DNA of 64,000 nt from Escherichia phage A73. Position 1 is the first letter of the stretch. Every line of letters begins with the position of its first letter. Shown here in pieces: positions 30,664 to 37,665 of this stretch. The stretch lies in sequence record OP778609, one strand, 5' to 3'. Made by a program: the position numbers and the translations under genes. The notes under the pieces were generated by a model. The model was not told where the DNA came from, made no database searches, and worked only from the letters and a program-made list of their open reading frames with translations.

Positions 30664-31002
30664 TTATAATTCTTCAGTATTTTCCACAGCATGAGCCAGT
30701 TCGCTCAAGAAATCTTTCAAGCCAATGGTGTACGATTCAACAAGAGCCTCTGCAATTTGGCTCTTAAACTCCGAATCGGCTAACTCTTCCATCCGGCTAT
30801 GTACGCTGATGTTCGTAATCAGAAACTTAACGATATAGCTCGCCTTGTAGAGCAAAGGGAAGTAATCTTCTACCATGTTTTCAATACGGAAGTATTTTTC
30901 TGCGTTGTATTCCCACATAAAAACAGCCGTCAGTTCTTTGGCAAGTTCATGGTCTTTTTTAGCCATTGCAATCAGATGTTCGATCTCTGCTTGTTCAACC
31001 AT
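30664..31002 (-). CDS. hypothetical acidic protein (112 aa)
   Basis: ATG verified. Confidence 0.5.
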   Translation of the reverse strand: MVEQAEIEHLIAMAKKDHELAKELTAVFMWEYNAEKYFRIENMVEDYFPLLYKASYIVKFLITNISVHSRMEELADSEFKSQIAEALVESYTIGLKDFLSELAHAVENTEEL

Positions 31003-31214
31003 TAAATGACCTCCTCTTTAAGAATCTCACGATGATCTGCGCTGTACCATCCTTTCATCGTATTAACTACACCAACAGCCTCGCTGTATGTTTCAAATTT
31101 TGATTCTTCATGTGGGCCAATACGGACAGTTACCCAAAACAAGTTAAATACTTTACGATGAACTTCGTAATGCGTTGATTCACCTTTCCGAACTTTAACG
31201 ATCCGAACTTTCAT
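31002..31214 (-). CDS. hypothetical protein (70 aa)
   Basis: ATG (MKVRIVK..) preceded by GGAGGG; track ORF begins at TTG 31229. Confidence 0.5.
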   Translation of the reverse strand: MKVRIVKVRKGESTHYEVHRKVFNLFWVTVRIGPHEESKFETYSEAVGVVNTMKGWYSADHREILKEEVI

Positions 31215-31410
31215 TACACCACCCTCCAAAAGTCATAAATGCTTGATCAACCATATCTTTCCACTCAGGGTAGAGAGCACAAATCATGATGTAGACCTCT
31301 TCATCAATGTCTTCACACTCCTCCATTTCCAAATACTCTACCACAGGTATGGGCAGAAGGCAATTTATTTCTTTACCCCTGAATTTCAGACCCTTAACTA
31401 ATTTTAGCAT
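31195..31410 (-). CDS. small acidic protein with ALYPE motif (71 aa)
   Basis: motif EEVYIMICALYPEW shared with family members. Confidence 0.45.
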   Translation of the reverse strand: MLKLVKGLKFRGKEINCLLPIPVVEYLEMEECEDIDEEVYIMICALYPEWKDMVDQAFMTFGGWCNESSDR

Positions 31411-31411
31411 A

Positions 31412-31651
31412 TCAATCCTTAATCACGTAGAATCCTGATTCGTTCATCAGGACAAAGGACTTGCCGAAGAAATCCTTACGATTATCCAAAACAAGGTAGA
31501 ATCTTCGCTCAGACGAGAGGTGATGTGGGTCAGCCATATAGCTTACCCTCGCCGTCATGCCCTTATTCTTCCCTCTTGTGATCCTTACCCTTGTACCATT
31601 CTCATATTTAATATCCACCGAACCTCCATCGCAACTCTTTATGAATCTCAT
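31412..31651 (-). CDS. hypothetical protein (79 aa)
   Basis: ATG verified. Confidence 0.5.
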   Translation of the reverse strand: MRFIKSCDGGSVDIKYENGTRVRITRGKNKGMTARVSYMADPHHLSSERRFYLVLDNRKDFFGKSFVLMNESGFYVIKD

Positions 31652-32111
31652 CCAACCCTGGTTTCAGTTTTGGAAGATCTCTTATAAACTCAGGATAGAG
31701 GACATTAACGAAGTCAATCTCATCATCTGTGGGTTTTTGAATATCTTCGAAATACTCGTCAAGATTGAATATCTGCCAATCCTTACACCCTGCCTTTCGG
31801 ACACCCATGAAGATTTCATTGTTACAGGTAGCCATCCAGGAGATCCTAGATCCTTTACCATTCGCATTCGGCAATGTTGAAACACAGAAGCGTGGTACTT
31901 CCTGAACCTTAAAACCCTCGTCATAGTATCCACGACCACGTTGAAATTTAAACTTGGTCTTTCCCACTCTTTGACTAATCTTCATATCTCGGCGAAAGCT
32001 GTGGTCCCCCGTATAGATCAGTTGACGAAGACACTGAGTATATCTGATCTTTTTCCAATTCCAATCTCGAATGAGTATTTCATAGACTTCCTTAAATGCT
32101 TCATACGCCAT
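31608..32111 (-). CDS. hypothetical protein with PTxxEIxFxxxLYPE motif (167 aa)
   Basis: EYFEDIQKPTDDEIDFVNVLYPEF. Confidence 0.5.
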   Translation of the reverse strand: MAYEAFKEVYEILIRDWNWKKIRYTQCLRQLIYTGDHSFRRDMKISQRVGKTKFKFQRGRGYYDEGFKVQEVPRFCVSTLPNANGKGSRISWMATCNNEIFMGVRKAGCKDWQIFNLDEYFEDIQKPTDDEIDFVNVLYPEFIRDLPKLKPGLDEIHKELRWRFGGY

Positions 32112-32334
32112 CGGAGGATTCCTTATCTAGAGCACCAACAATCTCGAACTTTGCTACGCCTAAAACAACCACATGACCCAAGGATTGTACACCTGTCCAC
32201 GGAGTACCATTCCTCTTAGGTCGCTTACCAGTTACATCGCAGAAATCATTCCGCATTTCTGTTGCATCAAACAACTCGCCTTTCGGAAAAACATCTTTGA
32301 AGTCAGCGATCACGTTAAGACATTTCAGTTTCAT
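32101..32334 (-). CDS. hypothetical protein (77 aa)
   Basis: ATG at 32334 preceded by GAGGAG; track start 32340 is TTG. Confidence 0.45.
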   Translation of the reverse strand: MKLKCLNVIADFKDVFPKGELFDATEMRNDFCDVTGKRPKRNGTPWTGVQSLGHVVVLGVAKFEIVGALDKESSDGV

Positions 32335-32659
32335 ATTCAAACACTCCTCTCTCTAATCTTTGTTTGGCAAGTAACTCCCTTTGTGCTCTAAGTGGCATCC
32401 TGAAAAATATCACAACATTCTCCAAATCCGCTGCCCGTTTTTTAAGCCCTTTGGTGAATTTACCTTCCCGCTTAATTGCATCATATATACCCCTGTACTC
32501 CTCTTCAATGGAGTTGTCTTCAAATATCTGGTTGGATACCATACTATCAATCTCCATACCGAGAGCTTCAAAGCTATACCAGTCTACATGTTCTTCTGTA
32601 ACAGGACCTCTTTCTTTGTACACTTGTCCAGTTATTTCATTAACTACGATCGTTGTCAT
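32315..32659 (-). CDS. hypothetical protein (114 aa)
   Basis: ATG (MTTIVV..) preceded by AAGGAG; track start 32677 lacks RBS. Confidence 0.5.
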   Translation of the reverse strand: MTTIVVNEITGQVYKERGPVTEEHVDWYSFEALGMEIDSMVSNQIFEDNSIEEEYRGIYDAIKREGKFTKGLKKRAADLENVVIFFRMPLRAQRELLAKQRLERGVFEYETEMS

Positions 32660-35880: not shown

Positions 35881-36025
35881 AATGATCATCCTTCCACTAA
35901 GCTGAAATCATTTTATCATATTATGAAAAAATACAACAGCGAAGATCGGTCATGAACACTATGTTGTTAATTTTTACAACAGGACTCCAAAAAAGTATTT
36001 AAATCACTTAAATCGATTTTAATAC

Positions 36026-36061
36026 ATAGAAAATACCTATGGACCAGATCTGACCCATAGG
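36026..36061 (-). terminator. terminator: 26-bp near-palindrome plus T-rich run
   Basis: CCTATGG..CAGATCTG..CCATAGG then TATTTTCT on minus strand, downstream of ORF 36082. Confidence 0.55.
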
Positions 36062-36081
36062 CTATACCTTAATGTGAAATT

Positions 36082-36660
36082 TTATTCATTTCCCCGATAT
36101 TTTTGAATTGCGATCGAAGTCCTTGGTTCAGCCAGTCCAGTTCCATATGCATACCATTTGCCAGTGAGTGTTTTTCGAGCACCGTAGGACCCAATCTCCA
36201 TGTCGTCACAATAAACATCGTAACCGATCGGGGTCTTAACTAAAAAGAGTACATTACGAGGAATCCCTAAGAGGGTAAACATCGATATGGCATCTTTTGC
36301 GATCTCGTGAGAAATCTTCTCTGCATTCTTTTTACTGGTTGCACTTCTAAACAGTTCCATCTTTAAGAAGATATTGAAATGAATATCATCAAGAACCATC
36401 TCATCACGGAAGCATGGGGTCACAGCCATCCAACTGCCATCTTCCAACTTCCCTTCTTTGTCGAGTTGGAGGAATGATTGCTCTGCGGAAGCCACTGCAT
36501 ATTTCCCGTTCTGGACAATTCGAAGATCAGTAACATCTTCGGGGCATGTATGGTCCATAGCATCATCATCCACATAGCTTGGGACAACCTTATCATTGAA
36601 ACCTTTACATTTCCACCAACTGTGGGCATCAATAAACAATGTGAAGTCGATGTTTGACAT
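36082..36660 (-). CDS. hypothetical protein (192 aa)
   Basis: ATG (MSNIDF..) preceded by GCGAGG; track ORF starts at GTG 36690. Confidence 0.5.
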   Translation of the reverse strand: MSNIDFTLFIDAHSWWKCKGFNDKVVPSYVDDDAMDHTCPEDVTDLRIVQNGKYAVASAEQSFLQLDKEGKLEDGSWMAVTPCFRDEMVLDDIHFNIFLKMELFRSATSKKNAEKISHEIAKDAISMFTLLGIPRNVLFLVKTPIGYDVYCDDMEIGSYGARKTLTGKWYAYGTGLAEPRTSIAIQKYRGNE

Positions 36661-36661
36661 T

Positions 36662-37165
36662 TTAGCCTCGCTTACCATTCTGGAATGCACGTTTAGTAAT
36701 TTTTGACATAACCATCAGGTCTTCTATTGAAGTGCTTGGATGATACTTATTCAGGTAGGCTTCCATAGCACCGACCAGATCAGAAAGCTCTACCAACTCC
36801 ATGATCTTACATTTTTGTTTAGCTGCATCCTTGAGTTCATCAAGTTCTTCTTGAATCTTAGTGATCTCTCCAAGCTCTCCGCGAGGGAAAGTATCCAGAT
36901 GATAACCAGGTTTTTGTTCTTCAATACCCTCATGTCCGACAACACGAAATTTTCCGGCAGCGAAACGCCAAACACCTTCAAAATACACAATGTAATGTTC
37001 CGACTCTACAATGAAGATAGTGTCGAAATTTTTAAATTTAAAAAATCCTTCGACAAGATTATCTTCTGTACTGAAACTTCCTAAGAAGTTGAGTTCTTGC
37101 TCCGTATGAAATTCCATAACCATATTTTCGTTCTGGAGTTTCGTCAGCAATTTTAAAATTTTCAT
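36662..37165 (-). CDS. putative MazG-like nucleotide pyrophosphohydrolase-domain protein (167 aa)
   Basis: C-terminal helix pair with EELDELKDA..ELVELSDLVGA resembles MazG/HisE-type metal-binding helices; ATG 37165 preceded by GAGGAG. Confidence 0.35.
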   Translation of the reverse strand: MKILKLLTKLQNENMVMEFHTEQELNFLGSFSTEDNLVEGFFKFKNFDTIFIVESEHYIVYFEGVWRFAAGKFRVVGHEGIEEQKPGYHLDTFPRGELGEITKIQEELDELKDAAKQKCKIMELVELSDLVGAMEAYLNKYHPSTSIEDLMVMSKITKRAFQNGKRG

Positions 37166-37176
37166 TTTCTCTCCTC

Positions 37177-37665
37177 TTATGGGCAACACCGTGGAGATCT
37201 TCCACAGAAGAATTGCCAATTGGTTTCTGAGTCTTTGTAATTTACAAACCCTATCCTTCCGCACCCTTGTCCACTACAAACAGCCTCACGAGGATGATAG
37301 TCTATACTACAAGAGTGTGGATGGTCAAATGCTTCTCGTATTTCAACACATAGTCGGCTTAACCAGGCGAACATTTTTGGCATAGAAGCCTCAAGAAGTT
37401 TAAGTTCGTCGATCGTAGGTTTGTCTTTCTCAAGGAAGAAGTCATCTATCTCGGAAAACAAAATAACGTTTTGAACTATCCCGTCAGTTACCTTGTAAGA
37501 GAACTCCTCAGTAAGCCTCACGGTAACTTCCTCTATCAGTTCTTTTTCATTATCTTGATCTTTTGCCAGTCTTTCCTCAATCCATCGGATAATGAAGAAT
37601 CTTTCTCTCTGAACATCCATGTTCAAAGTGTTGATTATTTTTTCATAGATTAGGTTTCCTTCCAT
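37177..37665 (-). CDS. hypothetical protein with C-terminal Cys-rich zinc-finger-like tail (162 aa)
   Basis: HPHSCSIDYH..CSGQGCGR..CGRSPRCC; also carries FLEKDKPTIDELKLLEASMP family motif. Confidence 0.5.
   Translation of the reverse strand: MEGNLIYEKIINTLNMDVQRERFFIIRWIEERLAKDQDNEKELIEEVTVRLTEEFSYKVTDGIVQNVILFSEIDDFFLEKDKPTIDELKLLEASMPKMFAWLSRLCVEIREAFDHPHSCSIDYHPREAVCSGQGCGRIGFVNYKDSETNWQFFCGRSPRCCP

What the first reader, a model, noticed from the sequence alone, without database searches (positions are those of the whole stretch)
30664..37665. Expanded family of small acidic proteins sharing a (D/E)-x-(F/Y)-F-x-x-P-T-x-(D/E)-E-(I/L)-x-x-F-x-A-L-(F/Y)-P-E motif
At least eight consecutive minus-strand genes (31195, 31608, 33329, 33787, 34036, 34414, 34848, 37177) share a short acidic helix-like motif ending in ALFPE, ALYPE, VHPE or AANPK but are otherwise divergent, one carrying a Cys-rich zinc-finger tail. 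This looks like a lineage-specific paralogous expansion of a small domain, possibly a shared protein-interaction peptide.
Basis: seen in the sequence. Interest (0 to 1): 0.45.

Follow-up and report, generated by a model that had tools for sequence, protein, structure and literature searches.

The report
Phage gene family sharing acidic motif
An E. coli phage and its close relatives carry seven to ten diverged copies of a small, previously undescribed protein domain marked by one acidic helix-turn-helix signature; the family is real and conserved, but what it does is unknown.

Summary
The window is a Septuagintavirus (W70/A73-like, Vequintavirinae) E. coli phage. All eight named minus-strand ORFs carry the motif. 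Leave-one-out profiles recover seven at 10.7-32.6 bits, against a best of 11.3 bits in 50 composition-preserving shuffles.

Conservation is at protein level: synonymous codons differ between copies. The genes are under purifying selection. Each paralogue has a syntenic orthologue in Certrevirus phages and in two metagenomic relatives, at 5-10 copies per locus. Seunavirus has one weak copy and Mydovirus none.

Profile-profile alignment always puts the motif in register and extends over 26-70 columns, so this is a small domain, not a linear peptide. The refined consensus is EFFEDPxxPTxEELDLFEALYPE, with mean charge -6. AlphaFold2 models it as loop, helix, Pro-capped turn, helix.

My reading is a clade-restricted family of non-virion accessory proteins: a shared structural hairpin joined to divergent N-terminal parts and tails (a zinc ribbon; an SSB-like DEDIPF end). 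Function is inferred only. Moderate interest.

The parts
37177..37665 (-). Member C (162 aa, = W70_216). Motif EIDDFFLEKDKPTIDELKLLEASMPK, core at 37372-37416, followed by a conserved His/Cys-rich probable zinc-ribbon tail (HPHSC...C..C...C.....CCP).
   Evidence: (phrog_12113)
34848..35369 (-). Member B (173 aa, = W70_220). Motif VFEGLFENPTHPTDEELDLFTALYGD, core at 34959-35003. The C-terminus is VDEDIPF, like the E. coli SSB tip.
   Evidence: (phrog_12009)
34414..34851 (-). Member A1 (145 aa, = W70_221). Closest to the consensus: VLEEYFLDPTDILEEEIEMFEALFPE, core at 34483-34527. Full-length paralogue of 31608-32111.
   Evidence: (AF2)
34036..34410 (-). Member D (124 aa, = W70_222). The C-terminal ~70 aa domain carries ILDFFADPMNIEKEEILLLEAANPK, core at 34108-34152. 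This is the most central profile, linking groups C, F, E and X.
33787..34026 (-). Member E2 (79 aa, = W70_223). Motif REEYFTSKTPEGRTEDWNFYESVHPE, core at 33892-33936. Minimal member, modelled as all-helical.
   Evidence: (phrog_15823)
33329..33625 (-). Member E1 (98 aa, = W70_225). Motif RDRYFTSGESYEGRLEDWNLFAALFPE, core at 33482-33526. Closest paralogue of 33787-34026.
31608..32111 (-). Member A2 (167 aa, = W70_229, pI 9.0). Motif LDEYFEDIQKPTDDEIDFVNVLYPE, core at 31686-31730.
   Evidence: (phrog_12307)
31195..31410 (-). Member F (71 aa, = W70_231). Degenerate motif VVEYLEMEECEDIDEEVYIMICALYPE, core at 31261-31308. Weakest of the eight.
   Evidence: leave-one-out 6.2 bits; 28 bits; 86% over 61 columns to member D
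6953..7771 (+). C-terminal motif FFEDWLSPTEEEIQLFKAVNGD, core at 7694-7738.
   Evidence: 18 bits; phrog_12463, which the motif region of 31608-32111 also hits; P0008
59534..60202 (-). Probable additional member H (222 aa, = W70_180). Partial motif EEYFENPLEPTHGELLMALALEG, core at 59609-59638. It lacks the Y-P-E junction.
   Evidence: 13.9 bits; 19 bits, E 9e-5

Best explanation
Shown. These are real, expressed-type protein genes. They form a multigene family confined to the Septuagintavirus/Certrevirus branch of the Vequintavirinae. The family arose by old duplications, mostly in one gene block downstream of the RlaP-like nucleotidyltransferase gene. Every paralogue has since been kept in synteny under purifying selection. 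What the members share is a collinear module of about 45-70 residues. Its sharpest part is (E/D)-(F/Y)-F-x-D-P-x-x-(P/I)-(T/S)-x-(E/D)-E-(L/I)-x-(L/M)-(F/L)-E-x-L-(Y/F)-P-(E/D/K).

Inferred. The motif is the structural signature of a strongly acidic loop-helix-turn-helix hairpin. The F-F pair and the L/F/L/Y positions form the hydrophobic staple. P-T-x-E-E and Y-P-E are helix N-caps. It is a fold core rather than a free linear peptide.

Inferred. This hairpin is joined to unrelated or unrecognisably diverged N-terminal parts and C-terminal tails: a zinc ribbon in 37177-37665 and an SSB-tip-like DEDIPF end in 34848-35369. The proteins therefore most likely act as non-virion accessory or host-interaction factors made inside the infected cell. 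Each would use the common scaffold to present a different binding surface. Which targets they bind is not known.
For: - Motif significance: leave-one-out HMM against shuffles.
- Protein-level, not DNA-level, conservation: 38-69% nucleotide identity with differing synonymous codons.
- Purifying selection within the genus: 10-11% of codons vary in amino acid, against 22% with synonymous-only change.
- One-to-one syntenic orthologues in CR3, CR9, phiTE and the metagenomic contigs L015 and L016.
- Profile-profile alignments centre on the motif in register in nearly every pairing above 10% probability and span 26-70 columns. Examples: D-X 98.6% over 70 columns, C-D 95.6% over 45, D-F 86% over 61.
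- A nearly gap-free 61-residue alignment of 32 members.
- AF2 places the motif as loop + helix 110-119 + Pro-started helix 121-142 in o34414, and as helices 28-41 and 43-55 in o33787. These are the most confident parts of both models.
- N-terminal parts differ: a beta sheet in o34414 and helices in o33787. They are not alignable between groups.
- Motif and non-motif parts are equally conserved between orthologues, 34% vs 32% identity, so the variable parts are functional too.
- No family member is among the 28 W70 virion proteins (PMC11370258).
- The best PDB sequence hit, though not significant, is a designed helical bundle with LVETLFPELY at a helix-Pro-helix junction.
Against: - No function, partner or expression timing was measured.
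- The AF2 models are only moderately confident (mean pLDDT 67 and 77).
- The high pLDDT over the motif is partly an artefact of my alignments, which are deepest there.
- Structural burial of the conserved residues could not be measured because no coordinates were available.
- Conserved acidic residues (E13, E18 and D5 of the profile) could equally be a binding surface.
- Copy counts in relatives come from partial loci and from a profile trained on the same clade.
Confidence: 0.6

Rival explanations
1. Common docking handle. The acidic hairpin is a shared module that binds one common host or phage hub protein. The variable N-terminal domains bring different cargo or targets to that hub, as in adaptor families.
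For: - Architecture of variable N-terminal part plus conserved C-proximal module.
- Invariant acidic and aromatic positions and mean charge -6.
- Long-term retention of the motif across subfamilies that are otherwise unalignable.
Against: - No partner was identified.
- Conserved positions are fully explained by helix capping and hydrophobic packing.
- In the 71-79 aa members the motif is about 40% of the protein, so it must be part of the fold.
- The motif is not more conserved than the rest of each protein between orthologues.
- phiTE keeps only 5 members.
Confidence: 0.25
2. Replisome-hub mimicry. The (E)-L-D-L-F core imitates the beta-clamp-binding motif QL[SD]LF. Together with the SSB-like DEDIPF tail of 34848-35369, the family would target host replication and repair hubs.
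For: - B-group orthologues conserve EELD(L/M/F)F.
- VDEDIPF-COOH is conserved in all five Septuagintavirus orthologues.
- The SSB-Ct hexapeptide DDDIPF is a known interaction tip (PMC5872125, PMC3632105).
Against: - The defining Gln is absent in every member.
- Other subfamilies have ILLL, LKLL, WNFY or VYIM at these positions.
- The segment is predicted helical, whereas clamp-binding motifs bind as extended peptides (my knowledge).
- The DEDIPF tail is absent from Certrevirus orthologues, so it is a late addition to one member only.
Confidence: 0.07
3. Virion-targeting signal. The shared segment directs otherwise unrelated proteins into the capsid, like the T4 capsid-targeting sequence of internal proteins.
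For: - A shared short segment in divergent small proteins.
- The neighbouring RCC1-like genes (26228-29726) do encode virion proteins.
Against: - None of the family is among the 28 W70 virion proteins.
- None of the phiTE orthologue numbers is named in the main text of the phiTE virion structure paper.
- The motif is internal or C-proximal, not N-terminal. I did not look for a protease-site pattern.
Confidence: 0.03
4. Artefact. The motif reflects amino-acid composition, spurious ORFs, or a repeated DNA element (promoter, recombination site) that happens to be translated.
For: The region is rich in D, E, F and L. Weak Pfam hits to three unrelated families fall on the motif, as expected for a generic acidic amphipathic helix.
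Against: - Shuffles never reach the observed scores.
- Synonymous sites differ between copies, and no DNA repeat is needed to explain the similarity.
- The substitution pattern is that of purifying selection.
- Orthologues are conserved across genera with at most 30% nucleotide similarity.
Confidence: 0.01

Closest known systems
PHROG families phrog_12307, 12686, 12009, 12113, 15823, 12463, 12410 (plus 21419, 13666, 30227), all 'unknown function'
   Same: Individual members match these families, several over full length: E 1e-19 to 2e-40 for four of them. These are the existing database records of the same proteins and their Certrevirus orthologues.
   Different: PHROGs splits the proteins into about ten separate families. 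It does not record that they share one domain. No function, structure or name is attached.
E. coli SSB C-terminal tip (DDDIPF-COOH)
   Same: 34848-35369 ends in VDEDIPF-COOH, conserved in all five Septuagintavirus genomes. The SSB tip is the docking peptide for primase, chi and other partners (PMC5872125, PMC3632105).
   Different: Only one family member has it, and Certrevirus orthologues lack it. The protein has no detectable SSB or OB-fold domain. Binding is untested. This concerns a tail, not the shared motif.
Beta-clamp-binding motif QL[SD]LF
   Same: The consensus core ELDLF of the motif resembles it by eye.
   Different: Gln is never present and the positions vary widely between subfamilies. 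The segment is predicted to be helical and embedded in a domain. I do not regard this family as clamp binders.
Multigene families of small early or accessory proteins in large virulent phages, and adaptor families that share a helical docking box (e.g. F-box)
   Same: Tandemly arranged, fast-diverging small proteins. A conserved short helical module is joined to variable parts.
   Different: This is an analogy from my general knowledge, with no sequence or fold relationship. Here the paralogues are stably retained in synteny under purifying selection, rather than turning over.
Pfam DUF7675, DUF1266 and HCP (weak hits on the motif)
   Same: Each hit overlaps the motif region in one member (E 0.047-0.094).
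   Different: All are far below the gathering scores (13-14 bits vs 27). Each is hit by a single member of the 17 scanned, and the three families are unrelated. I treat them as chance.

Membership tests
The motif family itself (as defined here by profile) | Significant match to a profile built without the sequence in question | tested here: met
   7 of 8 members score 10.7-32.6 bits in leave-one-out, against a shuffle maximum of 11.3 bits. The three lowest (10.7-11.7) sit at that ceiling. o31195 fails leave-one-out (6.2 bits) but is supported.
The motif family itself | Homology extends beyond a short peptide (domain-level collinearity) | tested here: met
   hhalign gives 26-70 aligned columns in register. 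A 61-residue, nearly gap-free alignment covers 32 members.
Any Pfam-A or NCBIfam family | Score at or above the curated gathering threshold | tested here: not met
   No hit reaches threshold in 25 proteins scanned. The best is 14.3 bits against a cut-off of 27.
Any protein of known structure | Sequence-profile or fold similarity to a PDB chain | tested here: not met
Beta-clamp-binding motif (QL[SD]LF) | Gln at position 1 and L/F at positions 4-5, in an extended, accessible peptide | tested here: not met
   Gln is absent in all 39 sequences. Positions vary (ILLL, WNFY, LKLL). The segment is predicted helical.
SSB C-terminal tip mimic (34848-35369 only) | Acidic run followed by I-P-F at the extreme C-terminus | tested here: met
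   VDEDIPF followed by the stop codon in the window and in four related phages.
SSB C-terminal tip mimic (34848-35369 only) | Binding to SSB-interacting proteins | not testable with these tools
   No complex prediction or binding assay is available.
Bona fide SSB (34848-35369 only) | OB-fold ssDNA-binding domain | tested here: not met
   No SSB or OB Pfam hit at E<=1.
Capsid-targeting or virion-packaged internal proteins | Presence in purified virions | tested here: not met
   Absent from the W70 ESI-MS/MS list of 28 virion proteins. The phiTE orthologue numbers searched are not named in the main text of the phiTE virion paper. Low-abundance presence cannot be excluded.
Zinc-ribbon-type tail (37177-37665 only) | Conserved Cys/His ligand set | tested here: met
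   H-x-H-x-C ... C-x2-4-C ... C-x5-C is conserved in the window, CR3, P0010 and P0011. It matches phrog_19749 and phrog_14060. Metal binding itself was not tested.

The most novel reading that the evidence does not exclude
The shared acidic hairpin is a common docking or assembly handle. Either all paralogues plug into one hub (a host protein or a phage-encoded factor), or they co-assemble with each other. The family would then be a set of interchangeable adaptors that redirect one machine to many targets. In that picture the SSB-tip-bearing member recruits or blocks the host SSB interactome. This would be a new kind of modular host-takeover system in virulent phages.
Probability: 0.2. Interest if true: 0.75.

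Novelty: new member of a known kind. Interest (0 to 1): 0.38.

Why it matters
About three quarters of the orthologous protein groups in these phages have no assigned function (PMC11370258). This result merges about ten separate 'unknown' PHROG families into one domain family with a clear signature. It shows the family is ancient, retained and selected, which makes it a defined target for experiments.

If the hairpin proves to be a common handle, or if the DEDIPF-tailed member engages the SSB interactome, it would reveal a new host-manipulation strategy in a phage group considered for biocontrol and therapy. If it is only a structural scaffold, it is one more lineage-specific phage domain, useful mainly for annotation.

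Tried and rejected
- **Word-indexed protein searches.** Three searches returned only near-identical orthologues, so the AF2 alignments stayed shallow.
- **IMG/VR locus searches.** They failed or found nothing.
- **AFDB50 fold library.** Unavailable.
- **First PDB profile hits.** These were artefacts of designed Kelch-like repeat proteins.
- **Weak Pfam hits** (DUF7675, DUF1266, HCP, Tad2-like). Each is hit by one member only and is sub-threshold.
- **Literature searches for a described family.** Nothing found.
- **Generic sigma-70 and terminator scan.** No enrichment. The Certrevirus early-promoter pattern gives only four sites in the window, one of them 94 nt upstream of 37177-37665. That is suggestive but not enough to assign timing.
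- **Stronger constraint on the motif than on the rest of each protein.** Not seen, either within the genus (p = 0.65) or between genera (p = 0.28).
- **Ribbon-helix-helix or HTH DNA binding.** Considered and dropped, because the module is strongly acidic.
- **Regex counts.** Post hoc, and not used as statistics.

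
Full report
**Origin of the window.** Region 30664-37665 is 100% identical to Escherichia phage W70 (OP778610) and 93-96% identical to A7_1, A5-4, UPEC06 and LTH01. Every gene there is annotated 'hypothetical protein'. The window differs from the W70 record between about 4 and 22 kb. One member is identical to a protein of phage A73, so the window is probably A73 or a similar strain. These phages were described as a proposed new genus, Septuagintavirus, in the Vequintavirinae. It sits closest to Certrevirus, at no more than 30% nucleotide similarity (PMC11370258). That paper does not mention this gene family.

**Observation check.** All eight ORFs exist as stated.
- A 31-column HMM of the hand-extracted segments was tested by leave-one-out against all 1099 stop-to-stop ORFs of the window. 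Four left-out members ranked first among sequences not used in training (32.6, 22.1, 20.2 and 14.6 bits).
- Three more scored 10.7-11.7 bits and ranked just behind two unexpected hits. 31195-31410 scored only 6.2 bits.
- In 50 shuffles that keep each ORF's composition, the best score averaged 5.6 bits and never exceeded 11.3. The three lowest members sit at that ceiling and lean on the later evidence.
It is a composite.
- Only six of the eight proteins are acidic overall, and the genes are interspersed with nine non-motif ORFs.

**Further members.** The two unexpected hits are real members.
- 6953-7771 (+), 272 aa, carries FFEDWLSPTEEEIQLFKAVNGD. It shares phrog_12463 with the motif region of 31608-32111.
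- 59534-60202 (-), 222 aa, carries EEYFENPLEPTHGELLMALA.
- A scan of the whole W70 genome found no others.

**These are real genes, conserved as proteins.**
- Between paralogues the motif codons are 38-69% identical, and identical residues often use different codons. No repeated DNA element underlies the similarity.
- Across five Septuagintavirus genomes, 10.3% of motif codons and 11.5% of other codons vary in amino acid. In both classes, 22% show synonymous-only change. That is purifying selection with no extra constraint on the motif.
- Between genera, identity is 34% in the motif and 32% elsewhere.

**Distribution.**
- tblastn finds orthologues of individual members only in the five Septuagintavirus records and about 25 Certrevirus records, out of 50,697 phage records.
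- In the syntenic block downstream of the RlaP-like nucleotidyltransferase gene, the profile finds 7-8 members in CR3, 7-8 in CR9 and 5 in phiTE. It finds one weak copy in Seunavirus, which is confined to that genus. It finds none in Mydovirus Ro1.
- A HMMER search of 1.84 billion representative proteins with the motif profile returned only 10 proteins at E<=1e-3. Eight were this clade's known proteins. The other two were more distant zinc-ribbon-tailed homologues.
- The contigs encoding those two (L015, GC 51%; L016, GC 38%) show the same synteny and carry 10 and 5-7 motif ORFs.
- Gene order of the subfamilies (C, B, A1, D, E, A2, F) is conserved between the window and CR3. The duplications therefore predate the split of these genera. 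Only the 33329/33787 pair and a few extras in L015 look younger.

**Domain or peptide?** Profile-profile comparison of orthologue groups gives a consistent picture.
- 34414-34851 and 31608-32111 are full-length paralogues (97.9%, 142 columns).
- All other relationships are local and centre on the motif in register: A-C 92.9% over 36 columns, A-B 93.6% over 26, C-D 95.6% over 45, D-X 98.6% over 70, and D-F 86% over 61.
- Thirty-two representative 61-residue segments align almost without gaps.
- The refined 39-sequence profile has consensus EFFEDPENPTDEELDLFEALYPEEA. F is near-invariant at position 3, D/N at 5, E/D at 13, and P/G at 22. Mean net charge is -6.2.
- The unit is thus a small domain whose sharpest part is the motif. 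The parts N-terminal to it are not alignable between groups.

**Structure.**
- AF2 for 34414-34851 (pLDDT 67, pTM 0.66) gives an N-terminal helix, five strands, then the motif as loop + helix 110-119 + Pro-started helix 121-142. That stretch has pLDDT 86-89.
- AF2 for 33787-34026 (pLDDT 77) gives five helices, with the motif spanning helices 16-22, 28-41 and 43-55.
- The high confidence over the motif is partly due to my alignments being deepest there.
- PDB sequence-profile searches give nothing real. Pfam, NCBIfam and PHROGs give no function.

**How it most likely works.**
- Shown: a retained, selected, clade-restricted domain family.
- Inferred: the conserved residues read as structure. The aromatic pair and the L/F/L/Y positions are spaced as on one helix face. 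P-T-x-E-E and Y-P-E are classical helix N-caps. A designed helical bundle carries LVETLFPELY at such a junction. In the 71-79 aa members the motif is about 40% of the chain.
- I therefore take it as the fold core of an acidic hairpin on which different N-terminal parts and tails are mounted.
- Two tails hint at diversified targets. One is a conserved His/Cys zinc-ribbon-like tail on 37177-37665. The other is a VDEDIPF C-terminus on 34848-35369. The latter is conserved in all five E. coli-infecting relatives, absent from Certrevirus orthologues, and matches the SSB-Ct tip DDDIPF (PMC5872125, PMC3632105).
- None of the family is among the 28 virion proteins of W70. The phiTE orthologue numbers I searched are not named in the main text of the phiTE virion structure paper. 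The proteins therefore probably act inside the infected cell.
- Expression timing is not established. The block is co-oriented with nucleotide-metabolism genes, and a Certrevirus-type sigma-70-like promoter match lies 94 nt upstream of 37177-37665.

**Rivals.**
- Clamp-binding mimicry is unlikely as a family trait, because Gln is absent, the positions vary, and the segment is helical.
- A virion-targeting signal is disfavoured by the proteomics.
- Compositional or DNA-level artefacts are refuted.

**Novelty and interest.** The proteins are in databases as about ten separate 'unknown' PHROGs. I found no record of them being united as one family with this signature. It is a new family of a familiar kind: lineage-specific paralogous accessory proteins of large virulent phages. 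I rate it of moderate interest (0.38). The SSB-tip-tailed member and the adaptor hypothesis are the parts most worth an experiment.

Noticed in passing
window 34848-34871 (minus strand; C-terminus of 34848-35369): The protein ends in VDEDIPF-COOH, nearly the E. coli SSB C-terminal interaction tip DDDIPF. The tail is conserved in all five Septuagintavirus genomes. Certrevirus orthologues end in FFPMKDK or FYPK instead. It is a possible mimic or competitor of the SSB tail.
   Followed up: partly
window 32315-32677 and 32640-32984 (minus strand): Two adjacent, overlapping ORFs are paralogues of each other (33% identity over 92 aa, E 1e-10). They share a C-terminal FFRMP motif and belong to a second small family inside the same block. 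Neither has a Pfam or PHROG hit. 32315-32677 is not annotated in W70 but is annotated in UPEC06.
   Followed up: partly
window 26228-29726 (minus strand): Three tandem paralogous ORFs of 380-414 aa lie immediately downstream of the motif block. The W70 paper reports their counterparts (W70_237-239, RCC1-like, phrog_4219) as virion proteins, although they are encoded far from the structural module.
   Followed up: partly
window 36082-38777 and 40749-42047 (minus strand): A cluster with a tRNA/RNA-repair flavour is interleaved with the family. It comprises an RlaP-like nucleotidyltransferase (Pfam E 7e-19), a truncated class-II aminoacyl-tRNA-synthetase-like protein (phrog_4806), a protein with a MazG/PRA-PH-like C-terminus (phrog_6408), and further upstream a CCA-adding enzyme. 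ARAGORN finds no tRNA gene in the window.
   Followed up: partly
window 37759-37787 (minus strand): GTTGACT-N16-TAAAAT matches the sigma-70-like early/middle promoter consensus reported for Certrevirus. It lies inside the 3' end of the nucleotidyltransferase gene, 94 nt upstream of the start of 37177-37665. Only four such sites occur in the window, against 0.17 expected by chance.
   Followed up: partly
window 35390-35417 and 36035-36062 (minus strand): Two strong terminator-like hairpins (12-bp stems followed by T-runs) flank the membrane-protein gene 35422-35889. They may split the block into separate transcription units.
   Followed up: no
window about 4000-22000 compared with W70 record 69-81 kb: The window is not collinear with the deposited W70 genome here; it holds about 5.7 kb more sequence. 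The source is therefore a close relative (probably A73, 142 kb) rather than W70 itself.
   Followed up: partly
window 33622-33783 (minus strand): A 53-aa ORF predicted to be almost entirely hydrophobic (a single transmembrane-like peptide) sits between the two E-type paralogues. It is annotated in W70 as W70_224.
   Followed up: no
L015 10474-11311 (metagenomic relative, Logan SRR7990603): This relative has two extra motif-bearing ORFs right after the zinc-ribbon member that have no counterpart in the window. Copy number therefore still changes within the clade.
   Followed up: no
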